Below, in pieces: positions 1 through 16,436 of a stretch of 16,721 nucleotides of DNA. The DNA is taken from the IMG/VR virus record IMGVR_UViG_2617270976_000017, positions 1 through 16,721 of that record, one strand, 5' to 3'. Numbering within the stretch: the stretch's first letter is position 1; each line of letters begins with the position of its first letter. Under the pieces are notes generated by a model, which saw only the letters and a program-made list of their open reading frames with translations, was not told the origin of the DNA and searched no databases. A program made the position numbers and the translations under genes. The DNA comes from a virus. Lineage: Duplodnaviria > Heunggongvirae > Uroviricota > Caudoviricetes.

Positions 1-378
1 CCTGCTGACCATTGTCTGCATGATGTTCAGGATATGAGTACGATTAATCATCCCCGGGCTGACCTGAGCAAAGGGCAGTACGGCTGTGTCGGACAGGGCT
101 TACATATTGCCAAAAAACTGCTTCCGTATATCCCTAATAACGCGGGGATCCTGCTGGTACCATGCTGTCGTGGTGGTTCGGCATTCACCCAGGGCACGGA
201 GGGGACATTCAGCGAGTCCACGGGGGCCAGTCAGGATTCGGCTCGCTGGGGAGTGGGTAAGCCGTTATATCAGGATCTGCTTTTCCGCACGAAGGCAGCA
301 TTGCAGAAAAACCCGAAAAACGTTTTGCTGGCGATATGCTGGATGCAGGGGGAATTCGATATGACGAATGCCAGTTAG
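1..378 (+). CDS. 3' portion of a hypothetical prophage protein; reading frame is open from base 1, so probably 5'-truncated by the window edge
   Basis: Frame 1 has no stop from position 1 to TAG at 376-378; the ORF track starts it at ATG 34 only because that is the first Met. GC-rich like the phage backbone. No family recognised with confidence (a weak impression of an SGNH/esterase-like 'W-x-QGE-x-D' block, not verifiable here). Confidence 0.4.
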   Translation, partial: PADHCLHDVQDMSTINHPRADLSKGQYGCVGQGLHIAKKLLPYIPNNAGILLVPCCRGGSAFTQGTEGTFSESTGASQDSARWGVGKPLYQDLLFRTKAALQKNPKNVLLAICWMQGEFDMTNAS

Positions 379-587
379 TGCTGGTGAGCCTTGACGGGCT
401 GATCTCCTATGCAGCAAAGGTTCATCTCAAAGTAAGACGAACGCTATGACAAACCAAGATTCTATAGACCTATCTGATCTTCGTGGAATGGTCAGTTTTC
501 CAGACAAAAGGTAATCACCATAGTCGTATGGCTATGAATCTTGTTGCTGCAGATAAGCATTTTGTGATTGAAGTGGTCAAATCTCTC

Positions 588-644
588 AAATGCAGTAAAA
601 TGCAGTGCGCTATAATTCAATAACGGAGGGAGTAAGGAGAAGTC
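588..644 (+). promoter_or_regulatory. putative promoter/RBS region for the 645..1265 gene: tandem AAATGCAGT x2 (588-606), TATAAT (611-616), strong Shine-Dalgarno GGAGGG/AAGGAGA (625-640)
   Basis: Perfect -10 hexamer 29 nt upstream of ATG 645; double SD motif 5-15 nt upstream of the ATG; no convincing -35, so promoter call is weak. Confidence 0.3.
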
Positions 645-1265
645 ATGAAAGATCAAGATGTTAGGTTCGCGGTGCATCATAAGCTTTTGAAAGAATCGCA
701 TTTAGATCCAGACTGCCTTGTGGTCGATGAATTTTCCATATCCCTTGGCGCCAGTAGAGCAGACATTGCTGTAATAAATGGTGTTATACACGGGTACGAG
801 CTCAAAAGTGAATATGACTCTTTGGAGCGTTTGCCTCTTCAAATCAAGCATTATTCTTCTGTAATGGACAAGGTTACTCTTGTCGTAGCTGAGAAACACC
901 TTGAGGGAGCATTAAAGTTAATCCCAGGTTGGTGGGGCGTTAAAACGGTTTCTGTTGGGCCAAAAGGCGCCATTCTTATAAAGCACATGCGTGGAGAAAA
1001 GCTTAATCGAAACCATGACACATTGATGCTCGCTCAATTGCTTTGGAAAGATGAATGTATCGACGTACTTGAACGATGGGGCTATTCCAAAGGAATCAAA
1101 AGCAAGCCCCGATTTGAGTTATGGAATATTATTGCGGAAAATATTCCAATAGCGAATCTCAGGCTTGAAGTCAGAACAGCCTTAAAGAAACGCGTAGGCT
1201 GGAAAGTTAAGGCTTGGCAGGCTGAGTCTGCGCCAACCAATAAAGCTGTCTCACGACTAACGTAA
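645..1265 (+). CDS. hypothetical 206-aa protein with a PD-(D/E)xK-like nuclease signature (..RADIAVINGVIHGYELKSE..); accessory (moron) gene
   Basis: Long ORF with strong RBS; AT-richer than the flanking phage structural genes; Asp followed ~12 residues later by E-L-K in hydrophobic beta-strand-like context, as in restriction-endonuclease-fold proteins. Family assignment not possible without HMM search. Confidence 0.65.
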   Translation: MKDQDVRFAVHHKLLKESHLDPDCLVVDEFSISLGASRADIAVINGVIHGYELKSEYDSLERLPLQIKHYSSVMDKVTLVVAEKHLEGALKLIPGWWGVKTVSVGPKGAILIKHMRGEKLNRNHDTLMLAQLLWKDECIDVLERWGYSKGIKSKPRFELWNIIAENIPIANLRLEVRTALKKRVGWKVKAWQAESAPTNKAVSRLT

Positions 1266-2274
1266 TATGGTGCGTATGTGCAACTTTACGCCATTCTTTA
1301 GAGCCGCCAGATTTGTTAGCGCCTAATGATCTTTGGTAAATGTAATCATCCCCCCAACTAAATTTGGAGCCAAAGACTTGATACTCTGGCGAACTAACAA
1401 GGGTAGTACATAAGTTTTTAGTTTGGCCCCATCCATTTCCTTTAACTGCGGTACCTTTTACAAAGATCCATGAGGTATCGTTCGAATATCTCACTGAGAC
1501 ATACTGAGACATGAAGCGTGGGTCTACGCTCGTAATGGTAGAGCTAGCGGTGGGATAATCACTAAAACTTGGCGTTCTTCCATTGCTAAAATTCTGTACT
1601 ACGTACATCCAAAGATCGTATTCATGGCGCGGAATATGATGAACTTGATGTTGCGGTATCCCTGCCTGTGATGCCGGGTATGCGGTTGAAGATAAAATCA
1701 AGTTTCTCCACGGAGCTTGGCCTGATAATGTGTTGACCATGCTTAATGCTTGTTGTTTTAAACTATCAGTTGCGTTTTGAATATCTCCAAAATCAATGAT
1801 TACATCAATTAAACTAGGATGAATATTTAAGTGGTTAACCAGACTTGTGAATTGGTGCCATGTCTGGGGGGTGATAGATATAGCGAGCCCATTGATTAAG
1901 TTGCGTTGAACAGCATGTATATAGTTTGTTGAATATGCGGGAGAAACAACAGGGATAATTTCCTTACCATTTACTCTAGCATCTTGGATACACATATCTA
2001 GAGGATGATGGCGGCTCGAACCATGTTTATCTAAATATTTAACATCCAGCAAAACAGGACGATTGGCTTTCCAGGATGCCGCAAGGTTAATACCGAAGTC
2101 AGATAAGTAAGAACTCAAACTCTTCTTGTAGCATTCGTTTTCATAATCCCAGTCTATGTCTGGAATGGTAATGATCGGAGTAAAACCAGAGAGCGTAGTT
2201 TGATCTAAAAGCATCAGAGATTCATATTCAGCAGGCTTCCATTTCAGCTGTGGATAATATTGATGTTGACTCAT
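1207..2274 (-). CDS. hypothetical 355-aa protein, convergent to and overlapping the 3' end of 645..1265; accessory gene
   Basis: Long minus-strand ORF; ATG at 2274-2272 preceded by a perfect AAGGAG (complement of 2280-2285) with 5-nt spacing; same AT-rich composition as its neighbour. No recognisable lambda homolog. Confidence 0.65.
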   Translation of the reverse strand: MSQHQYYPQLKWKPAEYESLMLLDQTTLSGFTPIITIPDIDWDYENECYKKSLSSYLSDFGINLAASWKANRPVLLDVKYLDKHGSSRHHPLDMCIQDARVNGKEIIPVVSPAYSTNYIHAVQRNLINGLAISITPQTWHQFTSLVNHLNIHPSLIDVIIDFGDIQNATDSLKQQALSMVNTLSGQAPWRNLILSSTAYPASQAGIPQHQVHHIPRHEYDLWMYVVQNFSNGRTPSFSDYPTASSTITSVDPRFMSQYVSVRYSNDTSWIFVKGTAVKGNGWGQTKNLCTTLVSSPEYQVFGSKFSWGDDYIYQRSLGANKSGGSKEWRKVAHTHHITLVVRQLYWLAQTQPAKP

Positions 2275-2497: not shown

Positions 2498-2509
2498 GGG
2501 CGGCGACCT
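2498..2509 (+). other. cosN: 12-nt cohesive-end sequence GGGCGGCGACCT
   Basis: Exact match to the lambda 12-nt cohesive end, followed by CTCGCGG(T)TTTTC-CTATTTATGAAAATTTT as at the lambda left end. Confidence 0.8.
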
Positions 2510-2684
2510 CGCGGTTTTTCACTATTTATGAAAATTTTTCAGGGAAAATCGTGTCGGTACTTCTCGAATATAACTTTTTGTTTTTTTTAATATTGCATTC
2601 ATAAATGTCCGACATGAAAGTGTCCGAAAATGCCTTTTTTTGGCGTTTTCATGTCGGGCCTTGTATTTGATAATGAGTTGTTCT
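2510..2684 (+). promoter_or_regulatory. cosB-like terminase binding region with three oppositely oriented core elements (TGTCGG at 2552-2557, CCGACA at 2609-2614, TGTCGG at 2652-2657) and an AT-rich segment between the first two
   Basis: Position between cosN and the Nu1 start, +/-/+ orientation and spacing (about +54, +111, +154 from cosN) mirror the lambda R3-I1-R2-R1 layout, but the element sequence differs from lambda's. Confidence 0.55.
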
Positions 2685-3233
2685 ATGAAGGTTAATAAAA
2701 AGAGGCTTGCCGAAATTTTTAACGTGGACCCGCGGACGATTGAACGCTGGCAGTCTCAGGGGCTCCCTTGCGTCTCCAAAGGCAGTAAGGGCATTGAATC
2801 TGTATTTGATACTGCCATGGCAATTCAGTGGTATGCGCAGAGGGAAACTGATATCGAAAACGAAAAGCTCCGCAAAGAACTGGCCGATTTGCGTGCGGCA
2901 GCGGAGTCAGATTTACAACCCGGCACCATTGACTATGAACGCTACCGGCTCACAAAAGCGCAGGCAGATGCGCAGGAACTGAAAAATGCCCGTGAAGACG
3001 GAGTGGTGCTGGAAACTGAACTATTTACCTTCATTCTGCAACGTGTGGCACAGGAGATTTCGGGGATACTTGTGCGTGTGCCGTTGACATTACAGCGTAA
3101 ATATCCGGACATTTCACCATCACACCTTGATGTGGTGAAAACTGAAATCGCGAAAGCCTCCAATGTTGCAGCTAAGGCCGGTGAAAACGTGGGCGGGTGG
3201 ATCGATGATTTCAGACGCACAGAAGGCAGCTAA
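2685..3233 (+). CDS. nu1: terminase small subunit (lambda Nu1 homolog)
   Basis: [12 protein letters not shown]...[12 protein letters not shown]...[49 protein letters not shown] aligns along its length with lambda gpNu1 as recalled. Start taken at ATG 2685 (the ORF track's 2640 uses an upstream TTG). Confidence 0.9.
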
Positions 3234-5133
3234 TGCAGCCGGTGCGATAGCTACAGGGCTTTTATCTCTCATTATTCCTGTTCCACTGACGACAGTTCAG
3301 TGGGCCAATAAACATTATTACCTTCCTAAAGAGTCGTCTTATACCCCGGGGCGGTGGGAAACACTGCCGTTTCAGGTTGGCATCATGAACTGTATGGGCA
3401 ACGATTTGATTCGCACTGTTAACCTGATTAAATCTGCCCGTGTTGGTTATACAAAGATGTTGCTGGGAGTGGAGGCTTATTTTATTGAGCATAAATCACG
3501 CAACAGCCTTCTTTTTCAGCCCACGGACTCAGCTGCTGAAGATTTTATGAAATCTCATGTTGAGCCAACGATAAGGGATGTTCCTGCATTGCTGGAGCTG
3601 GCTCCATGGTTCGGAAGAAAACACCGCGATAATACGCTCACCCTGAAGCGTTTTTCCTCCGGTGTGGGTTTCTGGTGTCTGGGGGGAGCGGCAGCAAAAA
3701 ACTACCGTGAAAAATCCGTGGATGTGGTTTGTTATGACGAGCTTTCCTCGTTCGAACCGGATGTTGAAAAAGAGGGTTCGCCAACCCTGCTGGGGGATAA
3801 ACGTATTGAGGGCTCTGTATGGCCAAAATCCATTCGCGGCTCGACGCCTAAAATCAAAGGCTCCTGCCAGATCGAAAAAGCCGCTAACGAGTCGGCACAT
3901 TTCATGCGTTTTTATGTGCCCTGTCCGCACTGTGGGGAGGAGCAGTATCTGAAATTTGGCGATGATGCCTCGCCTTTCGGTCTTAAGTGGGAGAAGAATA
4001 AGCCAGAAAGTGTTTTCTACCTTTGTGAGCATCATGGCTGTGTGATCCATCAGTCTGAGCTTGACCAGAGTAACGGGCGGTGGATCTGTGAAAACACGGG
4101 CATGTGGACTCGTGACGGTCTGACATTTTTCAGCGCCGCGGATAATGAAATTCCGCCGCCGCGCTCCATCACATTCCATATCTGGACGGCGTACAGTCCG
4201 TTCACCACCTGGGTACAGATTGTCTATGACTGGCTGGATGCACTGAAAGATCCCAACGGCCTGAAAACCTTTGTGAACACCACGCTGGGCGAGACCTGGG
4301 AAGAGGCCGTGGGCGAAAAACTCGATCACCAGGTGCTGATGGATAAGGTTGTGCGTTACACGGCTGCGGTGCCTTCCCGGGTGGTTTATCTGACGGCGGG
4401 CATTGACTCGCAGCGAAACCGTTTTGAGATGTATGTCTGGGGATGGGCTCCGGGAGAGGAAGCCTTTCTGGTGGATAAAATCATCATTATGGGGCGTCCC
4501 GATGAGGAAGAGACGCTGTTACGTGTGGATGTGGCGATCAACAAAAAATACCGCCATGCAGACGGAACCGAAATGACCATTTCCCGTGTCTGCTGGGACA
4601 CCGGGGGGATCGATGGCGAAATTGTCTATCAGAGGTCAAAAAAACACGGTGTTTTCCGGGTGCTGCCGGTAAAAGGTGCATCTGTTTATGGCAAGCCGGT
4701 GATCACCATGCCAAAAACCCGCAATCAGCGGGGCGTGTATCTGTGCGAAGTGGGGACGGACACCGCAAAAGAAATTCTCTATGCCCGTATGAAAGCCGAT
4801 CCCACGCCTGCGGATGAAGCCACGTCGTATGCCATCCGTTTTCCTGATGATCCGGAGATTTTTTCGCAGACAGAGGCGCAGCAACTGGTGGCGGAAGAGC
4901 TTGTGGAGAAGTGGGAAAAAGGAAAGATGCGTCTGCTGTGGGATAACAAAAAGCGGCGTAACGAAGCGCTGGACTGCCTGGTGTATGCCTACGCGGCATT
5001 ACGTGTGTCCGTGCAACGCTGGCAGCTTGATCTGGCTGTACTGGCAAAATCCCGGGAAGAAGAGACGACCCGGCCAACCCTTAAAGAACTGGCAGCGAAG
5101 CTGTCCGGAGGAGTGAATGGTTACAGTCGCTGA
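3205..5133 (+). CDS. A: terminase large subunit (lambda gpA homolog)
   Basis: Strong colinear similarity to lambda gpA ([24 protein letters not shown]..., [33 protein letters not shown]..., [10 protein letters not shown]...). Start placed at ATG 3205 (MISDAQ...), overlapping the Nu1 3' end as in lambda. Confidence 0.95.
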
Positions 5134-5323
5134 ACTGCAGGCGCTGCGTCAGGCGCGCCTTGATTTATTAACCGGTAAACGGGTGGTGTCTGTCCAGAAA
5201 GATGGTCGCAGAATTGAATATACGGCAGCTTCTCTGGATGAGCTTAACCGGGCGATCAATGATGCGGAGTCGGTACTGGGGACAACCCGCCGTCGCCGTC
5301 GTCCGCTGGGAGTGAGGTTATGA
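5117..5323 (+). CDS. W: head-tail joining / head completion protein (lambda gpW homolog, 68 aa)
   Basis: 68-aa ORF with LLTGKRVVSVQKDGRRIEYTA core matching lambda gpW; overlaps A stop and B start (ATGA) as in lambda. Confidence 0.9.
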   Translation: MVTVAELQALRQARLDLLTGKRVVSVQKDGRRIEYTAASLDELNRAINDAESVLGTTRRRRRPLGVRL

Positions 5324-7029
5324 AACGAACGCCTGTCCTGATTGATGTGAACGGCGTTCCGCTTCGGGAGAGCCTCAGCTACAACGGTGGCGGTGCAGGA
5401 TTTGGCGGGCAAATGGCAGAGTGGTTGCCACCCTCGCAGAGTGCCGATGCGGCCCTGCTGCCCGCGTTGCGTCTGGGGAATGCCCGTGCAGATGATCTGG
5501 TGCGCAATAACGGAATAGCGGCCAATGCGGTGGCCCTGCATAAGGATCACATTGTCGGGCATATGTTTCTGATTAGCTACCGTCCGAACTGGCGCTGGCT
5601 GGGGATGCGGGAGACCGCGGCAAAAAGTTTTGTCGATGAGGTGGAGGCGGCCTGGTCAGAATACGCAGAAGGGATGTTTGGTGAGATCGACGTGGAAGGG
5701 AAACGCACGTTTACGGAATTTATCCGTGAAGGTGTGTGCGTTCATGCGTTTAACGGCGAAATCTTTGTGCAGCCGGTCTGGGATACGGAGAGTACGCAAC
5801 TGTTTCGTACGCGTTTTAAAGCCGTGAGTCCGAAACGGGTGGACACGCCAGGACACGGTATCGGGAACCGTTTTCTGCGGGCCGGTGTGGAGGTTGATCG
5901 ATATGGCCGTGCCGTTGCGTACCATATCTGTGAGGATGATTTTCCTCGCTCCGGGAGTGGACGATGGGAACGGATCCCGCGTGAACTACCCACCGGGCGT
6001 CCGGCCATGCTGCATATTTTCGAGCCGGTGGAGGACGGGCAGACCCGTGGAGCCAATCAGTTTTACAGCGTTATGGAACGGCTGAAGATGCTCGATTCCC
6101 TGCAGGCAACACAGCTTCAGTCGGCCATAGTGAAGGCGATGTATGCAGCGACGATTGAAAGTGACCTTGATACCGAAAAGGCCTTTGAATATATCGCCGG
6201 TGCGCCGCAGGGGCAGAAGGATAATCCGCTTATTAATATTCTGGATAAGTTCTCCACCTGGTATGACACGAATAGCGTGACGCTGGGCGGTGTCAAAATT
6301 CCGCACCTTTTCCCCGGTGATGATCTGAAACTTCAGACCGCGCAGGATTCAGACAATGGATTTTCGGCGCTTGAACAGGCGCTGCTGCGGTATATCGCCG
6401 CCGGTCTTGGCGTTTCCTACGAACAGTTGTCCCGTGATTACTCGAAGGTCAGTTACTCAAGTGCCCGCGCATCCGCCAATGAGTCGTGGCGCTATTTTAT
6501 GGGGCGGCGAAAATTTATTGCGTCCCGGCTGGCCACGCAGATGTTTTCCTGCTGGCTGGAAGAGGCACTTCTTCGGGGGATTATTCGTCCGCCACGGGCA
6601 CGGTTTGATTTTTATCAGGCGCGATCAGCCTGGTCACGGGCTGAGTGGATTGGAGCCGGAAGAATGGCCATTGACGGGCTCAAGGAGGTTCAGGAATCAG
6701 TGATGCGCATTGAGGCCGGACTGAGCACGTATGAGAAAGAGCTGGCGCTGATGGGCGAGGATTATCAGGACATTTTCCGCCAGCAGGTCAGGGAATCTGC
6801 AGAGCGGGAAAAAGCCGGACTCTCACGTCCGGTGTGGATAGCGCAGGCGTATCAGCAGCAGATAGCGGAGAGTCGCAGGCCGGAAGAGGAGACAGTCGCG
6901 GATGAATATGACCAGCCGACGTCCGATATCACGAAGGATAAATGCAGCAAATGCCTGAGCGGCTGTAAGTTTCGCAATAACGTCGGCAACTTTGGCGGCT
7001 TCCTTTCCATTAACAAACTTTCGCAGTAA
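5320..7029 (+). CDS. B: portal protein (lambda gpB homolog) whose last codons are replaced by an in-frame fusion to the 3' end of tail gene L
   Basis: Residues 1-~525 colinear with lambda gpB (GGGAGFGGQ..., FEPVEDGQTRGANQFYSVME..., LRYIAAGLGVSYEQLSR...); the final 44 residues VADEYDQPTSDITKDKCSKCLSGCKFRNNVGNFGGFLSINKLSQ match the C-terminus of lambda gpL. Confidence 0.85.
   Translation: MKRTPVLIDVNGVPLRESLSYNGGGAGFGGQMAEWLPPSQSADAALLPALRLGNARADDLVRNNGIAANAVALHKDHIVGHMFLISYRPNWRWLGMRETAAKSFVDEVEAAWSEYAEGMFGEIDVEGKRTFTEFIREGVCVHAFNGEIFVQPVWDTESTQLFRTRFKAVSPKRVDTPGHGIGNRFLRAGVEVDRYGRAVAYHICEDDFPRSGSGRWERIPRELPTGRPAMLHIFEPVEDGQTRGANQFYSVMERLKMLDSLQATQLQSAIVKAMYAATIESDLDTEKAFEYIAGAPQGQKDNPLINILDKFSTWYDTNSVTLGGVKIPHLFPGDDLKLQTAQDSDNGFSALEQALLRYIAAGLGVSYEQLSRDYSKVSYSSARASANESWRYFMGRRKFIASRLATQMFSCWLEEALLRGIIRPPRARFDFYQARSAWSRAEWIGAGRMAIDGLKEVQESVMRIEAGLSTYEKELALMGEDYQDIFRQQVRESAEREKAGLSRPVWIAQAYQQQIAESRRPEEETVADEYDQPTSDITKDKCSKCLSGCKFRNNVGNFGGFLSINKLSQ
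6895..7029 (+). pseudogene. L: 3' remnant of tail tip gene L (last ~44 codons) fused to B
   Basis: C-terminal gpL sequence including the Cys-rich CSKCLSGC block; immediately followed by K as in lambda gene order L-K-I-J. Confidence 0.7.
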
Positions 7030-8316: not shown

Positions 8317-8388
8317 TATTATTTACTCATGTTCTAACTGATTTAATATTTATATCGAACACTGATAATTATTCTATTGGTTAGCTAT

Positions 8389-8727
8389 ATGAACAAAACG
8401 ATTTTATTCTGCACGATTATTGCCTTAACAGGATGTAAATCTTTGGATTACGTAAAATCCGGAAAACCTGTAATGGAAGGTAATTCATTAAAAAATATTG
8501 ATGAATTGTCAGGCTGCATATCCAGACAATGGGCTGGTAATGGAACACCTATAACATCCCTTCCTATTGAGAATGGGGTAAGCCTTTTAGTTCCACAGGC
8601 TATGGGGGGATATGATGTTGTGCTTGATATCAAAAAAGCAGGAAATGGCAGTAGTTTTACTCTTTATGAACGTGTACCAGCATTAACGCCAAAAATTTTT
8701 GCTGATAGTGTTAATGCATGTAAATAA
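8389..8727 (+). CDS. small predicted lipoprotein (signal peptide MNKTILFCTIIALTG-C, lipobox LTGC); accessory gene inserted between I and J
   Basis: ORF with N-terminal hydrophobic segment ending in L-T-G-C; markedly AT-rich relative to flanking I and J; followed by a hairpin terminator. Start placed at ATG 8389; weak RBS. Confidence 0.6.
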   Translation: MNKTILFCTIIALTGCKSLDYVKSGKPVMEGNSLKNIDELSGCISRQWAGNGTPITSLPIENGVSLLVPQAMGGYDVVLDIKKAGNGSSFTLYERVPALTPKIFADSVNACK

Positions 8728-8750
8728 TAGTTAATCCTGCTGTAACTCAT

Positions 8751-8780
8751 GAGCCGCCTTTTGGGCGGCTTTGTTGTTTA
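8751..8780 (+). terminator. rho-independent terminator-like hairpin (GAGCCGCC-TTTT-GGGCGGCT) plus T-rich tail
   Basis: 8-bp GC-rich stem (one mismatch) with 4-nt loop followed by TTGTTGTTT, directly after the lipoprotein stop. Confidence 0.55.
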
Positions 8781-8793
8781 TGGAGTGTGAGGA

Positions 8794-10186
8794 ATGGGTA
8801 AAGGAAGCAGTAAGGGGCATACCCCGCGCGAAGCGAAGGACAACCTGAAATCCACGCAATTACTGAGTGTGATCGATGCCATCAGCGAAGGGCCGATTGA
8901 AGGTCCGGTGGATGGATTAAAAAGCGTGCTGCTGAACAGTACACCGGTGCTGGACAGTGAGGGGAATACCAACATCTCCGGTGTCACGGTGGTGTTCCGG
9001 GCAGGTGAGCAGGAGCAGACACCGCCGGAGGGATTTGAATCCTCCGGTTCCGAGACGGTGCTGGGTACGGAAGTGAAATACGACACGCCGATCACCCGGA
9101 CCATCACGTCTGCAAACATCGACCGTCTGCGCTTTACCTTCGGTGTGCAGGCTCTGGTGGAAACCACCTCAAAGGGGGACCGGAATCCGTCGGAAGTCCG
9201 CCTGCTGGTTCAGATACAACGTAACGGTGGCTGGGTGACGGAAAAAGACATCACCATTAAGGGCAAAACCACCTCGCAGTATCTGGCCTCGGTGGTGGTG
9301 GGTAACCTGCCGCCGCGCCCGTTTAATATCCGGATGCGCAGAATGACGCCGGACAGCACCACAGACCAGCTGCAGAACAAAACGCTCTGGTCGTCATACA
9401 CCGAAATCATCGATGTGAAACAGTGCTATCGGTGCCGGTATTGAGAATACGCCAGCAGGAATGCAGAGTCAGGTGCTGCTGGCGGCAGACAGGATTGCGA
9501 TGATTAATCCTGCGAATGGCAACACAAAGCCGATGTTTGTTGGTCAGGGCGATCAGATATTTATGAATGAAGTGTTCCTGAAATATCTGACGGCTCCCAC
9601 CATTACCAGCGGCGGTAATCCTCCGGCATTTTCCCTGACACCGGACGGGCGGCTGACGGCGAAAAATGCCGATATCAGCGGTAACGTGAATGCGAACTCC
9701 GGGACGCTCAACAACGTCACGATTAACGAGAACTGTCGGGTTCTGGGAAAATTGTCCGCGAACCAGATTGAAGGCGATCTCGTTAAAACAGTGGGCAAAG
9801 CTTTCCCCCGGGACTCCCGTGCACCGGAGCGGTGGCCATCAGGAACCATTACCGTCAGGGTTTATGACGATCAGCCGTTTGACCGGCAGATTGTTATTCC
9901 GGCGGTGGCATTCAGCGGCGCTAAACATGAGAAAGAGCATACTGATATTTACTCCTCATGCCGTCTGATAGTGCGGAAAAACGGTGCTGAAATTTATAAC
10001 CGTACCGCGCTGGATAATACGCTGATTTACAGTGGTGTTATTGATATGCCTGCCGGTCACGGTCACATGACACTGGAGTTTTCGGTGTCAGCATGGCTGG
10101 TAAATAACTGGTATCCCACAGCAAGTATCAGCGATTTGCTGGTTGTGGTGATGAAGAAAGCCACTGCAGGCATCACGATTAGCTGA
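8794..10186 (+). pseudogene. J: tail tip/host specificity gene J, disrupted: N-terminal ~210 codons (8794..9444) joined out of frame to the C-terminal ~240 codons (9461..10186); central ~2 kb missing
   Basis: 8794..9444 matches lambda gpJ residues 1-~212 nearly residue for residue and then stops (..VKQCYRCRY*); 9461..10186 in another frame matches the gpJ C-terminal region (..[32 protein letters not shown]..) with a divergent extreme C-terminus. Confidence 0.8.
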
Positions 10187-10253: not shown

Positions 10254-10853
10254 ATGCGTAAATTATGTGCTGTTATTTTGTCCGCAGTAGTCTGGCAGGT
10301 CGCCGCTGCTACGCCAGCGAGTGCAGCAGAACATCAGTCCACGCTGAGCGCGGGGTATCTCCATGCCTCGACGAACGTTCCCGGTAGTGATGATCTGAAC
10401 GGGATTAACGTGAAATACCGTTATGAGTTTACGGACGCGCTGGGGCTGATTACGTCCTTCAGTTATGCCAATGCTGAGGATGAGCAAAAAACGCGCTACA
10501 GCGATACCCGCTGGCATGAAGATTCCGTGCGTAACCGCTGGTTCAGCGTGATGGCGGGGCCGTCTGTACGCGTGAATGAATGGTTCAGCGCGTATGCGAT
10601 GGTGGGTGTGGCTTACAGCCGTGTGTCGACTTTCTCCGGGGATTATCTCCGCGTAACTGACAACAAGGGGAAAACGCACGATGTGCTGACCGGAAGTGAT
10701 GACGGTCGCCACAGCAACACGTCTCTGGCGTGGGGGGCTGGCGTGCAGTTTAATCCGACCGAATCCGTGACCATTGACCTTGCTTATGAAGGTTCCGGTA
10801 GTGGCGACTGGCGAACGGATGCATTTATTGTTGGTATCGGATACCGTTTCTGA
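10254..10853 (+). CDS. lom: outer membrane beta-barrel protein Lom (Ail/Lom/PagC family)
   Basis: Signal-peptide-like N-terminus, alternating beta-strand pattern, C-terminal ...GIGYRF; position between J and stf as in lambda. Confidence 0.85.
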   Translation: MRKLCAVILSAVVWQVAAATPASAAEHQSTLSAGYLHASTNVPGSDDLNGINVKYRYEFTDALGLITSFSYANAEDEQKTRYSDTRWHEDSVRNRWFSVMAGPSVRVNEWFSAYAMVGVAYSRVSTFSGDYLRVTDNKGKTHDVLTGSDDGRHSNTSLAWGAGVQFNPTESVTIDLAYEGSGSGDWRTDAFIVGIGYRF

Positions 10854-11004: not shown

Positions 11005-13911
11005 ATGACAGTAAAAATTTCTGGCGTGCTTAAAGATGGCACAGGAAAACCAGTACAGAACTGCACCATTGTGCTGAAGGCCAGACGAACCAGCAGCACG
11101 GTGGTGGTGAACACGGTGGCCTCTGAAAATCCGGATGAAGCCGGACGTTACAGCATGGATGTTGAGCATGGTCAGTACAGCGTCACCCTGCTGGTTGAAG
11201 GTTTTCCGCCTTCACATGCCGGGACCATTACCGTCTATGAAGGTTCCAGACCAGGTACGCTGAATGATTTTCTCGGTGCCATGACGGAGGATGATGTCCG
11301 ACCGGAGGCACTGCGCCGCTTTGAGCAGATGGTAGAAGAGGTGTCACGTAACGCCTCCGCGGTTGCACAGAATACGGCAGCCGCGAAAAAATCAGTCAGC
11401 GATGCCAGTGCATCAGCCAGCGAGGCGGCAACTCATGCAACCGATGCTGCAGCCTCAGCACGTGCCGCCAGCACGTCAGCCGGACAGGCCGCGTCGTCGG
11501 CTCAGTCAGCGTCTTCCAGCGCAGGAACGGCATCGACAAAGGCCCGTGAAGCAGCAAAAAGTGCTGCTGCTGCAGAGTCATCAAAAAGCGCGGCAGCTAC
11601 CAGCGCCAGTGCCGCGAAAACGTCAGAAACGAATGCCGCAGCATCACAAAAATCGGCAGCCACTTCTGCATCCACAGCGACCACGAAGGCGTCAGAAGCT
11701 GCCACCTCGGCACGGGGTGCGGCGGCCTCAAAAGAGGCAGCGAAATCTTCAGAAACGAATGCATCATCAAGTGCCAGTAGTGCAGCTTCCTCGGCAACGG
11801 CGGCAGGAAATTCCGCGAAGGCGGCAAAAACGTCCGAGACGAACGCTAAGTCTTCTGAAACAGCAGCGGGACAGAGCGCCTCAGCTGCGGCAGGTTCAAA
11901 AACAGCGGCTGCATTATCTGCCAGTGCCGCGTCAACAAGTGCCGGGCAGGCCTCAGCCAGTGCCACCGCCGCCGGAAAATCGGCAGAAAGCGCCGCATCA
12001 TCCGCTTCAACAGCCACAACGAAGGCTGGCAAAGCCACTGAGCAAGCCACTGCAGCAGCGAGGTCTGCTTCTGCAGCAAAAACCTCTGAAACAAATGCAA
12101 AGACTTCAGCAGACAATGCTGCTTCCTCTAAGGCGGCAGCCGCATCGTCAGCCAGTTCAGCGGCGTCATCGGCATCATCTGCGTCTGCTTCAAAAGATGA
12201 GGCGACCAGACAAGCGTCAGCAGCGAAAGGTAGTGCCACGACAGCAACAACGAAAGCATCAGAGGCAGCTGGTAGTGCGACGGCGGCAGCTCAGAGCAAA
12301 AGTACGGCGGAATCCGCGGCAACGCGCGCCGAGACAGCAGCAAAACGGGCAGAGGATATTGCATCCGCCGTGGCGCTGGAGGATGCGAGCACGACGAAAA
12401 AGGGGATAGTACAGCTCAGCAGTGCGACCAACAGCACTTCCGAGTCACTGGCGGCAACGCCAAAAGCGGTTAAGGCGGTAATGGGTGAAACGAACAAGAA
12501 AGCGCCCTTAAATAGTCCTGCACTGACCGGAACGCCAACAACACCAACTGCGCGACAGGGAACGAATAATACCCAAATCGCAAGCACGGCTTATGTTATG
12601 GCTGCGATCGCTGCCCTCGTGGACTCGTCGCCTGACGCACTGAATACGCTGAACGAGCTGGCTGCGGCGTTGGGCAACGACCCGAATTTTGCGACCACCA
12701 TGACTAGCGCGCTTGCGGGTAAGCAACCGAAAGATGCCACCCTGACGGCGCTGGCCGGGCTTGCTACTGCGGCAGACAGGTTTCCGTATTTTACGGGGAA
12801 TGATGTTGCCAGTCTGGCAATCCTGACAAAAGTTGGGCGGGATATTCTTGCGAAATCGACCGTTGCCGCCGTTATCGAATACCTCGGTTTACAGGAAACG
12901 GTAAACAAGGCTGGTAACGCCGTTCAGCGTTCCGGCGATAAAATGACCGGAGAACTGAAAATTGGCACGGTGAATGCGCTGCGAATTTTCAATGATGCCT
13001 TCGGTCTTATTTTCCGTCGTTCAGAAGATTTTCTTCATTTCATTCCGACGGCTGAAGGACAAGGCGAAAACGGTGATATCGGCCCATTAAGGCCATTCGC
13101 TATAAATCTGAGAACAGGTGCTATATCTGTCAGCCACGGGGCCAAAATTGATGGTGGGCTGGCGCTTGGTACAGATAACGCACTGGGCGGTAATTCCATT
13201 ACTCTCGGAGATAACGACACTGGTATTAAACAGGGCGGCGACGGTGTCCTTTTATTCTATTCAAATGGACAACTGGCATTTGGGCTTCAACCCGCATCTG
13301 CTGATTTTTATAAGCGGGTTGCATATATTCATCAGGGAATAATTCCTGATGGAAGTGGCGCATTTGCAGACCAGTTGAATAATGCCACCGCGCCTTTTGT
13401 TCAGACGCAGTTTGCCTGGAATCCCACTCCTGGTGGTCATTACGTGCCGATAGTTAAGGGCTTGTCCATTCGCAATGGACAGGGCTATCCCGGCGCGGTC
13501 AGCTTTGGGTATTTACTGACAGAACAGTATGGATTTCCGGTTCCATGTATTCATATGCGTGGCGATGGAGGTAATGATGCTTTATGGTATTTTAACCCGA
13601 ACGATAAATCCTTTATTTCACCGGGTGCTCTTATTGCGGGTGGCGTCCGTTATAACACCGATGGAAATATATTTGGTGGGTGCTGGGGTTCAAACTTAAA
13701 TGATTACCTGAATAGTTCTTTTATCAGAAATGTGCGTCTGGGAGGCAGACGTTCTGACACATTATATCGCGGAGGACTTTGCGAACCAGGTAATGGTCAT
13801 GTGACAACAGGATTGCAAATTATTGGTGAGGTTGATGGAGATGACTGGATGGTGTCACGACCACTACAAAAATACATTTCTGGTAACTGGTATAACGTTG
13901 AACAGGCATAG
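11005..13911 (+). CDS. stf: side tail fibre protein (Stf family), 968 aa, with Ala/Ser-rich repetitive shaft
   Basis: N-terminus MTVKISGVLKDGTGKP.QNCTIVLKARRTSSTVV and ...YSVTLLVEGFPPSHAGTITVYE match the conserved Stf N-domain; long A/S-rich repeat region; C-terminal tip ...PLQKYISGNWYNVEQA. Confidence 0.9.
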   Translation: MTVKISGVLKDGTGKPVQNCTIVLKARRTSSTVVVNTVASENPDEAGRYSMDVEHGQYSVTLLVEGFPPSHAGTITVYEGSRPGTLNDFLGAMTEDDVRPEALRRFEQMVEEVSRNASAVAQNTAAAKKSVSDASASASEAATHATDAAASARAASTSAGQAASSAQSASSSAGTASTKAREAAKSAAAAESSKSAAATSASAAKTSETNAAASQKSAATSASTATTKASEAATSARGAAASKEAAKSSETNASSSASSAASSATAAGNSAKAAKTSETNAKSSETAAGQSASAAAGSKTAAALSASAASTSAGQASASATAAGKSAESAASSASTATTKAGKATEQATAAARSASAAKTSETNAKTSADNAASSKAAAASSASSAASSASSASASKDEATRQASAAKGSATTATTKASEAAGSATAAAQSKSTAESAATRAETAAKRAEDIASAVALEDASTTKKGIVQLSSATNSTSESLAATPKAVKAVMGETNKKAPLNSPALTGTPTTPTARQGTNNTQIASTAYVMAAIAALVDSSPDALNTLNELAAALGNDPNFATTMTSALAGKQPKDATLTALAGLATAADRFPYFTGNDVASLAILTKVGRDILAKSTVAAVIEYLGLQETVNKAGNAVQRSGDKMTGELKIGTVNALRIFNDAFGLIFRRSEDFLHFIPTAEGQGENGDIGPLRPFAINLRTGAISVSHGAKIDGGLALGTDNALGGNSITLGDNDTGIKQGGDGVLLFYSNGQLAFGLQPASADFYKRVAYIHQGIIPDGSGAFADQLNNATAPFVQTQFAWNPTPGGHYVPIVKGLSIRNGQGYPGAVSFGYLLTEQYGFPVPCIHMRGDGGNDALWYFNPNDKSFISPGALIAGGVRYNTDGNIFGGCWGSNLNDYLNSSFIRNVRLGGRRSDTLYRGGLCEPGNGHVTTGLQIIGEVDGDDWMVSRPLQKYISGNWYNVEQA
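11350..12370 (+). repeat. intragenic tandem-repeat region of stf encoding the Ala/Ser-rich shaft (recurring ..AAKTSETNA.. units)
   Basis: Repeated nucleotide blocks such as gcgaaaacgtcagaaacgaatgc / gcaaaaacgtccgagacgaacgc / gcaaaaacctctgaaacaaatgc recur at ~11615, ~11745, ~11825, ~12075. Confidence 0.6.
12872..12897 (+). other. 26-bp recombination (crossover) site of a Gin/Pin/Cin/Hin-type inversion system, inside stf
   Basis: TTATCGAATACCTCGGTTTACAGGAA closely resembles the gix/pix-type crossover sites as I recall them and is an inverted copy (22/26) of the site at 15951..15976. Confidence 0.65.
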
Positions 13912-13926
13912 CCATCAGGAGAATAT

Positions 13927-14454
13927 ATGCAACATCTGAAAAATATTACCGCCGGAAACCCCAAAACCATTGAGCAGTATCAGCTTACGAAAAAAGCTGG
14001 CGTTATCTGGCTATATACAGAAGACGGTAAAAACTGGTATGACGAATTAAAAAACTTTCAGGATGATACTTTAAAAATAGCTTATGACCAGAAGGGGATT
14101 ATTCGTTGTATTGAGAAAGACGTATCAATGCTTAACCCTGACGGGTTAAGTGTTGTTGAGTTACCGAATATAACAGCCAACCGTCGCGCCGATATCTCGG
14201 GAAACTGGAAGTTTCTGGATGGTAAAGTAGTAAAGCGGGAATATACAAAACAGGAACTGCAACAGCAGGCAGAGTTACAAAAAGCCGCTTTGCTTTCCGA
14301 AGCGGAGTCTGTGATTCAACCGCTGGAACGTGCTGTCAGACTGAATATGGCAACTGATGAGGAACGCACACGACTGGAATCATGGGAACGCTACAGCGTT
14401 ATGGTCAGCCGTGTGGATACTGCAAAGCCTGAATGGCCACAGAAACCAGAATAA
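13927..14454 (+). CDS. tfa: tail fibre assembly protein (Tfa family)
   Basis: 175-aa ORF directly after stf with good RBS (CAGGAGA); N-terminal half matches the conserved Tfa pattern and is paralogous to the inverted ORF at 14485..15018. Confidence 0.85.
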
Positions 14455-14465
14455 CAACAAATTAA

Positions 14466-14485
14466 GGCCCGTACGGGCCTTTTCT
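14466..14485. terminator. bidirectional terminator hairpin (GGCCCG-TA-CGGGCC) between the convergent tfa genes
   Basis: Perfect 6-bp GC stem with T-rich flanks on both strands, located between the stop codons of the two convergent tfa genes. Confidence 0.5.
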
Positions 14486-15018
14486 TATTCTGGTGGTTCC
14501 GGGAATGTTACAGGAAGAACCGAGGTATCAGTTGTCTCAACCTGTTGCACGTATCGCATCCAGTTCATCAGTTGCTGTCTGTCTGAATCAGTGATAATCC
14601 CCAAAGTAAGCTGTGTTTGCCAGAACTGCGTTTTTTCTCTGGCCTGCTGTAATAATATTTTTTTCTGGTTTTCCGTCTGTAGGCGCAACTCTTCTTCGGT
14701 ATATACACGTTTAATGACTGCGCCATCTTTAAACATCCATTTACCTGAGTCGTCAGCACGCCGGTTGGCGGTAATATCAGGAATCTCAACGACGCTATAA
14801 CCTTCAGGGTTAAGTGTGGAGGCATCTTTGGTTATGGCAACAATAATATTATTTTCATCGTAAACAATCTTTATGGTGTCTGGCTGAAAGTTTTTCACTT
14901 CCTCATACCAGTTTTTTCCGTCCTCAGAGTAAAGCCAGATAACTCCGTGTTTCTTTGTTAACTCATACTGTTCCAGTGTTTTAGCATTACCCGCTTTTAT
15001 GTTCTTTAAGTGCATCAT
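14485..15018 (-). CDS. tfa: tail fibre assembly protein, second copy in inverted orientation (Tfa')
   Basis: [45 protein letters not shown]... is clearly paralogous to the + strand Tfa ([45 protein letters not shown]...). Confidence 0.85.
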
Positions 15019-15019
15019 A

Positions 15020-15523
15020 TTAAACGCTCGCTACATTATACCAGGTGCCATTTATATACTTTTGAACGGGTCTGTAATAAACGCCCGCTATATTATCGGC
15101 AGAGTTAGACCCTGTATCCTGAACATTAATACCAGACAATACATGACCTGAAGGGCACTGGAAATTCCATGTTTGCCAGTTGTTCACTCCATAATATTGC
15201 TGTGAACCAAGTCGAACATCTTTCACATAACGGGAATCAAAGTTACCGTAATCCGAGGGGTTAACACGCCCTGTAATATTTATGGTTTTATTACTTTGAA
15301 TGCTTCCGGAGACAAAGCGCATAACATGGACGTTATTAGCATAAACATCCAGATTACCATCGCCATTTTGTTTAAAGCCCGTGTCATTATCACCCAATAC
15401 AATCGAATTACCGCCAAGAGCACTGGATGTTCCGATACCCAGTGCACCATTCAGTTGACCACCAGATAACGGCAGTGATAGAAACAGAAGCCACTGGAGC
15501 ACCTCAAAAACACCATCATACAC
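15020..15523 (-). CDS. stf: alternative side tail fibre C-terminal (receptor-binding) segment, inverted orientation (StfE-like fragment)
   Basis: Contains ..[22 protein letters not shown].. and C-terminal ..[16 protein letters not shown], paralogous to the stf tip (..ALGGNSITLGDNDTGIKQGGDG.. / ..PLQKYISGNWYNVEQA); stop abuts tfa' start. Confidence 0.75.
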
Positions 15524-15587
15524 TAAATCAGTAAGTTGGCAGCATCACCCACGGGCTGAACGATAAAAAATACCGCCATTTTTATAA

Positions 15588-15962
15588 TTAATCCAAAAAC
15601 TGAGCTGCAGGACAACTTCCTTCTCCCATATAAAAATGAATAATTAACGTTGATGCACCACTAATAGTTGCGTTATAGGCTCCGCTACTCCAGTTCCATC
15701 CAACTGCTTTATCATTCGCAACGGTGCTTCCTGTTTTCCCTAAGGCAAACGCACCAACATGACTTGCTTTTAATGTGATATCGGAGGAACCATCAAAAGC
15801 CACATTGCTTATTTTCCTGGCAGTTTTTAATTTTGCAGCTGTAGAAGCATTGCCGGATAGTTCACCAGAAAGGCCACCGCTGAATGTTTGTCGATTAGTC
15901 CAGGTATTCGCTGTACTGAGTAACGGTATTTTCTCCCCGCTTGTGCCGAGTTCTCGTAAACC
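15588..15962 (-). pseudogene. proximal part of the alternative stf variable segment, in frame with the crossover site but separated from the distal part (15020..15523) by stops in all frames
   Basis: Reading the minus strand from the crossover site at 15962 gives an open frame (GLRELGTSGEKIPLL...GSCPAAQFLD) ending at TAA 15588-15590; the downstream tip ORF is in a different frame. Confidence 0.45.
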
Positions 15963-15976
15963 GAGGTTTTAGATAA
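15951..15976 (+). other. second 26-bp crossover site, inverted relative to 12872..12897
   Basis: TTCTCGTAAACCGAGGTTTTAGATAA; its reverse complement TTATCTAAAACCTCGGTTTACGAGAA matches the stf-internal site at 22/26 positions with an identical central ACCTCGGTTTAC core. Confidence 0.65.
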
Positions 15977-16030
15977 TGGCGGTTTCTGGCCTGCATGGCA
16001 TGATTTGTGCTTTTGGACGGGAGATTCAGC

Positions 16031-16436
16031 GTGCTGATTGGCTATGTAAGGGTATCAACAAATGACCAGAATACAGATCTGCAACGAAACGCTCTTGTTT
16101 GTGCAGGATATGAACAAATATTTGAAGATAAATTAAGCGGAACAAGGACAGGCCGACCTGGATTAAAACGTGCTTTAAAGCGCCTTCAAAAAGGTGACGC
16201 ACTGGTTGTCTGAAAACTGGACTGACTGGTTCACTGTATGCGGCATCTTGTCGTGCTGGTGGTGGAAGCCTAGAAAAAGTATCGGGTGTTGCTGAACCGT
16301 GTTGATACATCAACTGCACCTGATATTGAGTGGCCTACGAACCCTGTCAGGGAGTAATCATTGGGATTATGCCGCAGCACGTCTTAAGCAAGAACGTGCT
16401 GCGGTTGGATGGTGAACTTTCGATAGTGCGAGTATT
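16031..16436 (+). pseudogene. pin: Pin/Gin/Cin/Hin-family serine DNA invertase, inactivated (first ~60 codons intact, then multiple in-frame stops)
   Basis: VLIGYVRVSTNDQNTDLQRNALVCAGYEQIFEDKLSGTRTGRPGLKRALKRLQKGDALVV matches the invertase N-terminus including the catalytic Ser context; TGA at 16211-16213 falls where a Trp is expected, followed by further stops while residual similarity (..MRHLVVLVVE.., ..RVDTST..) persists. 3' end approximate. Confidence 0.65.

What the first reader, a model, noticed from the sequence alone, without database searches (positions are those of the whole stretch)
15524..15962. Alternative fibre segment is not a continuous ORF from the crossover site
Reading the minus strand from the site at 15962, the frame stays open for about 125 codons (GLRELGTSGEKIPLL...GSCPAAQFLD) and stops at 15588-15590. 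The recognisable receptor-binding tip (15020..15523) is in a different frame, and around 15540-15590 all three frames contain stops. After inversion the constant Stf part would therefore be fused to a truncated tail lacking the tip, so the alternative state looks non-functional or encodes something different from the current fibre. A similar short StfE-like remnant is annotated in E. coli K-12 e14 as far as I recall, so this may be an old conserved lesion.
Basis: seen in the sequence. Interest (0 to 1): 0.45.

Follow-up and report, generated by a model that had tools for sequence, protein, structure and literature searches.

The report
Silent tail-fibre cassette broken by IS1 scar
The spare, switchable end of a prophage tail-fibre gene has been knocked out in this strain by a one-base frameshift and by the 74-base leftover of an IS1 insertion, which is ordinary recent gene decay in an already crippled prophage.

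Summary
On the minus strand the frame from 15962 is open for 124 codons and stops at 15590-15588. The tip (15523..15020) lies in the next frame. The cause is two separate lesions. (1) CAGTTTCGG has become CAGTTTTTGG (15602-15593), a +1 shift that creates the TAA. (2) Bases 15549-15476 are IS1 nucleotides 1-74 (74/74). They replace 77 nt of fibre sequence and bring an in-frame TGA.

The locus matches the invertible tail-fibre switch of E. coli EC958 prophage Phi4 (Forde 2014). It has the same 26-bp crossover sites and the same truncated invertase. With both lesions repaired in silico, the cassette is 945/945 nt identical to EC958. In EC958 and about 380 other complete genomes the cassette is one continuous ORF. 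In strains caught in the flipped state it forms a full 941-aa fibre.

Neither lesion occurs in 5,426 complete E. coli genomes. One independent read set carries the frameshift alone, so the frameshift is real and probably came first. Flipping this window would give a 751-aa tipless fibre.

The "old conserved lesion like e14 StfE" is wrong: StfE is an intact, unrelated cassette. The prophage also lacks head and tail-shaft genes. This is an ordinary finding of low interest.

The parts
11005..13911 (+). stf, the side tail-fibre gene in its current expressed state. It is an intact 968-aa ORF. The constant part is aa 1-627 and the variable part Sv starts at 12886.
   Evidence: (PF08400 phage_tail_N, E=1e-69)
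12872..12897 (.). Left 26-bp crossover site TTATCGAATACC-TC-GGTTTACAGGAA, with core dinucleotide at 12884-12885.
   Evidence: Identical to the EC958 Phi4_5prime site in Table 3 of PMC4134206.
13927..14454 (+). tfa, the tail-fibre assembly gene that goes with the current Sv.
   Evidence: PF02413, E=8e-35
14485..15018 (-). tfa', the assembly gene that goes with the silent cassette. It is intact and its protein is identical to EC958 WP_000972097.1.
15020..15475 (-). Distal piece of the silent cassette Sv', equal to residues 165-314 of the intact cassette (the receptor-binding tip). It is 100% identical to EC958.
   Evidence: Matches the Mu S C-terminus in PDB 5YVQ.
15476..15549 (-). IS1 remnant covering nucleotides 1-74: the left inverted repeat, the insA start at nt 56, and 6 codons. 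It replaces 77 nt of fibre sequence. Its GG-TGA (15547-15545) is a stop in the corrected fibre frame.
   Evidence: (74/74, E=3e-34)
15550..15962 (-). Proximal piece of the silent cassette Sv', residues 1-138 of the intact cassette. It is read as 124 codons plus TAA because of the frameshift.
15593..15602 (-). Frameshift site: CAGTTTTTGG where intact alleles have CAGTTTCGG (C changed to TT, +1 nt). It creates the TAA at 15590-15588.
   Evidence: The same change occurs without the IS1 scar in Logan ERR14760663.
15951..15976 (.). Right 26-bp crossover site TTCTCGTAAACC-GA-GGTTTTAGATAA, with core at 15963-15964.
   Evidence: Identical to the EC958 Phi4_3prime site.
16031..16266 (+). Truncated serine-invertase (pin/hin-like) pseudogene. 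It has about 79 N-terminal codons, TGG changed to TGA at 16211-16213, and no HTH domain. It has 1 mismatch in 472 nt against the EC958 Phi4 remnant.
   Evidence: (PF00239 N-terminal part only)

Best explanation
Region 12872-15976 is a Gin/Cin/Pin-type invertible host-range segment of a lambdoid prophage side tail-fibre operon. Its layout is: constant stf, site, Sv-tfa, then tfa'-Sv' on the other strand, site, and a pin remnant. The finding covers the silent cassette Sv'. In this strain Sv' was inactivated by two independent, recent mutations.

First, a C-to-TT change at 15599-15595 shifts the frame by +1 and gives the TAA at 15590-15588. Second, an IS1 inserted after CAGCCCGTG. An illegitimate deletion of about 780 bp then removed IS1 nt 75-768, the second 9-bp target duplication and 77 nt of fibre, with CA/CA microhomology at the junction. 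That deletion left a 74-nt IS1 left-end scar. The net length change from the scar is -3 nt, so it keeps the frame, but it removes 26 residues (DGYGFEADWSEFYTTTRKPSAGDVGA) and adds a TGA.

Each lesion alone truncates the protein. If a trans-acting invertase flips the segment, the product is a 751-aa fibre without the tip or the tfa'-dependent C-terminus. That is in effect a fibre-null state.

Shown directly: the lesions, their uniqueness to this lineage, the intact ancestral allele, inversion in sister strains, and the frameshift-only intermediate. Inferred: the full-length IS1 intermediate, the order of insertion and deletion, and loss of function of the truncated protein.
For: The IS1 identity is 74/74, and the remnant replaces 77 nt of the EC958 allele. 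With both lesions repaired the cassette is 945/945 nt identical to EC958 and its protein is identical to the alternative part of the strain 4/0 fibre. Repairing either lesion alone still gives a stop.

The intact allele is present at >=99% in 384 complete-genome records. No record carries the frameshift (best 98.5%) or the scar. The scar junction is absent from GTDB representatives, IMG/VR and JGI metagenomes.

The Logan ERR14760663 contig has the frameshift with the 77 nt intact. JJ1887 has a complete 768-bp IS1 at the same nucleotide, in the same orientation, with the 9-bp duplication CAGCCCGTG.

Strain 4/0 carries the inverted state with a 941-aa fibre. Its hybrid crossover sites show exchange at the core dinucleotide. 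Both junction types are common among genomes. Forde et al. 2014 observed this Phi4 segment inverting in EC958 despite the truncated invertase. Mu S' (PDB 8JU3) is continuous across the lesion region, E=2e-54. The window is identical to GCA_000704325.1 contig JNQT01000033.1.
Against: The IS1 scar is supported by only one public assembly, a draft, and no reads could be inspected. A full-length IS1 intermediate in this lineage was not found. The JJ1887 IS1 sits in a different (P2-like) prophage whose flanking SNPs differ from the window. The sequence insertion-then-deletion is therefore inferred. Whether the source strain has a trans-acting invertase is unknown, so the flipped state may never arise in it.
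Confidence: 0.9

Rival explanations
1. The discontinuity is a sequencing or assembly artefact of the draft genome: a homopolymer error for the frameshift and a mis-join through an IS1 repeat for the scar.
For: The source is a draft WGS contig. The scar-specific ORF is recorded in only that one assembly. The frameshift lies in a T-run.
Against: The same frameshift is present in an independent run, ERR14760663. At the scar's inner junction, IS1 nt 74 is joined to fibre nt +78 with only 2 nt of shared sequence. The target duplication and the right IS1 end are missing. A repeat-collapse mis-join would not produce this pattern.
Confidence: 0.05
2. The two pieces are normally separate genes, a shaft fragment and an independent tip gene, so nothing is broken.
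For: A gene caller reports two ORFs, of 71 aa and 160 aa.
Against: EC958, strain 4/0, JJ1887 (after removing its IS1), Mu S' (PDB 8JU3) and P2 H are all single continuous polypeptides across the junction. The N-terminus of the 160-aa ORF is translated IS1 sequence.
Confidence: 0.01
3. This is an old lesion conserved across lineages, comparable to the stfE pseudogene of K-12 e14.
For: K-12 stfE is flagged as a pseudogene in RefSeq.
Against: The lesions are absent from 5,426 complete genomes. The rest of the cassette has zero substitutions against EC958. stfE is an uninterrupted cassette from its crossover site to its stop, unrelated in sequence, and functional after inversion (PMC12529663).
Confidence: 0.02

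Closest known systems
Invertible tail-fibre segment of prophage Phi4 in E. coli ST131 EC958 (Forde et al. 2014, PMC4134206)
   Same: The 26-bp crossover sites are identical. The pin remnant is the same (1 mismatch in 472 nt). tfa' is the same. Once the two lesions are repaired, the alternative cassette is 945/945 nt identical. The segment length is 3105 bp in the window, against about 3106 bp reported for EC958.
   Different: The window's silent cassette carries a +1 frameshift and an IS1 scar. The surrounding prophage differs: no complete genome covers more than 63% of the window. A DinI-like gene follows the pin remnant, where EC958 has a methyltransferase gene.
Phage Mu G segment (S/U and S'/U' with Gin), P1 C segment (Cin), and e14 P segment (Pin)
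   Same: The mirror arrangement of two fibre C-terminal cassettes, each with its own assembly gene. The 26-bp sites with a 2-bp core. A serine invertase gene next to one site. Residues 70-164 of the alternative cassette are about 85-90% identical to Mu S' (PDB 8JU3). Muvirus vB_YpM_3 carries the window's active Sv-tfa-tfa' at 97% identity with an intact hin gene.
   Different: Here the constant part is a lambdoid Stf (PF08400 N-terminus). The invertase is a dead fragment. One cassette is a pseudogene. The e14 StfE cassette is not homologous.
IS1 insertion in the same cassette of the P2-like (Phi1-like) prophage of E. coli JJ1887
   Same: The same insertion nucleotide, the same orientation, and the same flanking 9 bp CAGCCCGTG.
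   Different: JJ1887 has the whole 768-bp IS1 with both target duplications and no frameshift. The window keeps only nt 1-74 and has lost 77 nt of adjacent fibre. Flanking SNPs differ between the two.

Membership tests
Gin/Cin/Pin/Hin-type invertible tail-fibre switch | Two 26-bp crossover sites in inverted orientation with identical central dinucleotide | tested here: met
   Sites at 12872-12897 and 15951-15976 with core TC/GA. Identical to the published EC958 Phi4 sites.
Gin/Cin/Pin/Hin-type invertible tail-fibre switch | A constant fibre N-terminus outside the segment, with two alternative C-terminal cassettes and their cognate assembly genes in mirror arrangement inside it | tested here: met
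   stf 11005-13911, tfa 13927-14454, tfa' 14485-15018 (minus strand), Sv' 15020-15962 (minus strand). The second cassette is present but disrupted.
Gin/Cin/Pin/Hin-type invertible tail-fibre switch | A functional serine invertase encoded next to the segment | tested here: not met
   Only about 79 N-terminal codons remain, with a TGA at 16211-16213 and no HTH domain. The same remnant is present in EC958, where inversion still occurs in trans.
Gin/Cin/Pin/Hin-type invertible tail-fibre switch | Both orientations observed, with recombinant sites | tested here: met
   Observed in sister genomes, not in this strain. Strain 4/0 has hybrid sites and a 941-aa fibre. Junction searches found both states. 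PacBio evidence exists for EC958.
Gin/Cin/Pin/Hin-type invertible tail-fibre switch | Fis-dependent recombinational enhancer in the 5' part of the invertase gene | not tested
   The 5' 191 nt of the remnant are 96% identical to the intact hin gene of vB_YpM_3, so the enhancer is probably retained. No enhancer motif was examined.
IS1 insertion sequence | Terminal inverted repeat and insA start that match IS1 | tested here: met
   74/74 identity to nt 1-74 of the JJ1887 IS1, whose annotated transposase CDS starts at nt 56.
IS1 insertion sequence | A complete element: two ends, transposase genes and a 9-bp target duplication | tested here: not met
   No other IS1 sequence exists in the window. 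The right end and the second copy of the duplication are absent. This is a remnant, not an element.
   BLASTP E=2.4. stfE is an uninterrupted ORF from its crossover site to its stop.

The most novel reading that the evidence does not exclude
The IS1 remnant keeps the inward-facing promoter region of IS1; there is a sigma-70-like match at 15542..15515 on the minus strand. That promoter could transcribe the orphan tip ORF (15523..15020) and tfa' while the cassette is in its silent orientation. The result would be a free receptor-binding tip with its chaperone, which might block a surface receptor against other phages, as reported for the e14 chimera StfE2. The evidence does not exclude this, but it is weak. 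The insA start codon is in a different frame from the tip and yields only a 27-aa peptide. The GTG at the start of the tip ORF has no ribosome-binding site. The promoter scan found fewer hits than expected from shuffled sequence.
Probability: 0.03. Interest if true: 0.5.

Novelty: already known. Interest (0 to 1): 0.15.

Why it matters
It matters mostly for annotation. ORFs 15588-15803 and 15020-15502/15523 should be annotated as one tail-fibre pseudogene interrupted by an IS1 fragment, not as two hypothetical proteins. The locus also gives a small dated series of decay in a silent cassette whose own invertase is dead: intact, then frameshift, then frameshift plus IS1 scar. It suggests that IS1 hits this cassette repeatedly (JJ1887, Ec-23 and this window). 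No new mechanism is implied.

Tried and rejected
Exact-match scans for the scar junction and for the fibre/IS1 left junction in GTDB representative genomes, IMG/VR and JGI metagenomes found nothing. The spread of the scar and the question of an IS1 hot spot therefore remain open.

Ec-23 (H27) looked at first like a second genome with the same junction. Its IS1 is about 460 nt further 3' and has deleted tfa', tfa and Sv.

The Muvirus vB_YpM_3 S' cassette was checked as a possible intact homologue of the alternative cassette. It is a different cassette. Only the active Sv, tfa and tfa' are shared.

Pfam gave no significant domain for the proximal piece and only a sub-threshold gp37_trimer hit for the tip. 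PDB sequence search was more informative.

Searching the whole window against complete E. coli genomes found no record covering more than 63%. The source was found instead by exact-protein look-up of the portal::gpL fusion ORF.

Programmed recoding was considered and rejected, because stops close all three frames across 15523-15590 and intact homologues need no recoding.

Full report
**1. Observation**

The frame starting at 15962 reads GLRELGTSGEKIPLL...GSCPAAQFLD for 124 codons and ends at TAA 15590-15588. The 167-codon tip ORF 15523..15020 lies in the frame starting at 15961. One detail needs correcting: the third frame has no stop within 15540-15590. Its nearest stop is at 15525-15523, so all three frames are closed only across 15523-15590.

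**2. What the locus is**

An imperfect inverted repeat (12866-12897 and 15951-15982) contains two 26-bp sites. These are TTATCGAATACC-TC-GGTTTACAGGAA and TTCTCGTAAACC-GA-GGTTTTAGATAA.

- Between the sites lie the variable 3' part of stf (the ORF is 11005-13911, 968 aa, with a PF08400 N-terminus), tfa (13927-14454), an oppositely oriented tfa' (14485-15018) and the silent cassette (15020-15962).
- Just outside the right site is a serine-invertase fragment at 16031-16266. It has about 79 codons, a TGA at 16211-16213 and no DNA-binding domain.

This is the architecture of the Mu G, P1 C and e14 P segments. Both sites are letter-for-letter the Phi4_5prime and Phi4_3prime sites that Forde et al. 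2014 tabulated for E. coli ST131 EC958. Those authors saw the segment in both orientations in PacBio reads and noted the truncated invertase. They concluded that inversion must be catalysed in trans, probably by the invertase of the P2-like prophage Phi1 (PMC4134206). The window's pin remnant differs from EC958's by 1 nt in 472.

**3. The lesions**

EC958 (L001) has a continuous ORF from the crossover site to the stop. Part of it reads ...GSCPAAQFRINYKNGGIFYRSARDGYGFEADWSEFYTTTRKPSAGDVGALPLSGGQ...NVASV*. Against this allele the window differs in exactly two places.

(a) Frameshift. CAGTTTCGG has become CAGTTTTTGG at 15602-15593.

(b) IS1 scar.
- Bases 15549-15476 (minus strand) match nucleotides 1-74 of IS1 at 74/74 (E=3e-34). 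The remnant covers the left inverted repeat, the insA start at nt 56 and six codons.
- It replaces 77 nt of fibre sequence. The net change is -3 nt, so the scar keeps the frame.
- It deletes 26 residues, and the IS1 end GG-TGA supplies a stop at 15547-15545 in the corrected frame.

Repairing only the frameshift gives ...YRSARG*. Repairing only the scar still stops at ...AAQFLD*. Repairing both gives a cassette 945/945 nt identical to EC958, with a protein identical to the alternative part of the strain 4/0 fibre. Simulated inversion of the window as it stands gives a 751-aa product (627 constant residues plus 124).

**4. Origin of the scar**

In JJ1887 (L002) the homologous cassette of a P2-like prophage carries a complete 768-bp IS1. 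It sits at exactly the same nucleotide and in the same orientation, flanked by the 9-bp duplication CAGCCCGTG.

The window keeps the left copy of that 9-mer, followed by IS1 nt 1-74, and then resumes at fibre nt +78. The simplest history is an IS1 insertion followed by a deletion of about 780 bp. That deletion would have removed IS1 nt 75-768, the 9-bp duplicate and 77 nt of fibre, between CA/CA microhomology. This history is an inference, because no full-length intermediate in this lineage was found.

The window's flanks match the EC958 allele and not the JJ1887 allele. It is therefore unresolved whether the two insertions are independent hits on a hot spot or a single event. Ec-23 has yet another IS1 further 3' in the same cassette.

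**5. Age and reality of the lesions**

- The intact 220-nt allele spanning both sites is present at >=99% identity in 384 complete-genome records.
- No record matches the frameshifted version better than 98.5%, and none has the scar.
- The scar junction is absent from GTDB representatives, IMG/VR and JGI metagenomes.
- The window is identical to NCBI GCA_000704325.1 contig JNQT01000033.1, positions 3-16723.
- The scar-specific 160-aa ORF is recorded only in that assembly.
- The frameshift-specific 71-aa ORF also occurs in an independent Logan assembly (ERR14760663). That contig has the frameshift but an intact 77 nt.

The frameshift is therefore real and most parsimoniously older than the IS1 event. 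The silent arm 14131-15962 has no other substitution against EC958, whereas the constant and active parts have 24. The lesions are recent and private to this lineage, not old and conserved.

**6. The alternative state is normally functional**

Strain 4/0 (L007) carries the flipped state. It has a 941-aa fibre (WP_023363168.1) ending in this cassette, followed by tfa'. Its crossover sites are exact hybrids of the two window sites, exchanged at the core dinucleotide.

Junction-specific searches list many genomes at 100% for each state. About 138 records fall in the >=99% band for the flipped junction and 233 for the window-type junction. These bands are not cross-tabulated with coverage, so the counts are approximate.

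Residues 70-164 of the cassette align with Mu S' in PDB 8JU3 (E=2e-54) as one chain across both lesion sites. The tip aligns with Mu S in 5YVQ. P2 H and G are colinear with the cassette and tfa' at 78% nucleotide identity.

**7. The e14 comparison**

K-12 stfE (L003 3120-3656) is an uninterrupted ORF from its crossover repeat (3604-3624, with 1797 nt between the arms) to its stop. It has no similarity to this cassette (E=2.4). Kirigo et al. 2025 report that inversion of that 1797-bp segment creates a functional chimera, StfE2 (PMC12529663). The pseudogene flag on stfE reflects a missing start codon in the silent orientation, not a lesion.

**8. Context**

The prophage itself is a remnant.
- ORF 5320-7029 fuses a lambda-type portal to the C-terminus of gpL, so the head and tail-shaft genes are deleted.
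- gpJ survives only as fragments.
- No complete E. coli genome covers more than 63% of the window.

The broken cassette is one more step in the decay of a cryptic element.

**9. Verdict**

The system is already described, and the lesions are mundane, although they are absent from the public collections searched apart from the source assembly itself. Interest is low.

Noticed in passing
window 5320-7029: One 569-aa ORF joins a lambda-family portal (aa 29-397) to the C-terminal 43 residues of minor tail protein L. This implies a deletion of all head-maturation, capsid, tail-tube and tape-measure genes, so the prophage cannot make virions.
   Followed up: partly
window 8377-10186: The tip attachment protein J is present only as fragments: FNIII-A domain ORF 8794-9444, and tail-tip plus C-terminal receptor-binding domain ORF 9461-10186. 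An intact lom gene follows at 10254-10853.
   Followed up: partly
window 16031-16411: The invertase pseudogene (79 codons with internal TGA codons) is fused to a fragment of another tail-fibre assembly gene. The structure is nearly identical to EC958 Phi4, which still inverts in trans according to PMC4134206.
   Followed up: yes
L002 2550-3317 (JJ1887, NZ_CP014316): A complete IS1 sits at the same nucleotide and in the same orientation as the window's scar, but in a P2-like prophage and with different flanking SNPs. Whether this is a hot spot or a shared event is not resolved.
   Followed up: partly
L004 about 3010-3758 (Ec-23, NZ_CM192150): A third IS1 event affects the same alternative cassette. 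The insertion is about 460 nt further 3', and tfa', tfa and the active variable part have been lost.
   Followed up: partly
L008 (Yersinia phage vB_YpM_3, MT374852) 2501-5790: A Mu-like phage isolated on Yersinia pestis carries the window's active Sv-tfa-tfa' module at about 97% nucleotide identity, next to an intact hin gene. The same fibre module therefore circulates among Mu-like, P2-like and lambdoid elements.
   Followed up: partly
window 11300-15962: Substitutions against EC958 are unevenly spread. There are 24 in the constant and active parts, with a cluster of 12 at 12213-12273, and none in the silent arm 14131-15962 apart from the two lesions. This suggests a mosaic history for the active gene.
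   Followed up: no
window 34-2274: Upstream of the terminase small-subunit gene lie a SASA-type carbohydrate esterase fragment, a P4 cII-like ORF (645-1265) and a 355-aa Beta_protein (PF14350) on the minus strand. This is cargo not typical of lambda.
   Followed up: no
window 14464-14481: A perfect GC-rich hairpin (AAGGCCCGTACGGGCCTT) lies between the convergent tfa and tfa' genes. It scores as a terminator on both strands and would serve whichever cassette is expressed.
   Followed up: no
window 15515-15542 (minus strand): The only sigma-70-like match in 14400-16100 lies inside the IS1 remnant and points towards the tip ORF and tfa'. The retained insA start would give only a 27-aa out-of-frame peptide.
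   Followed up: partly
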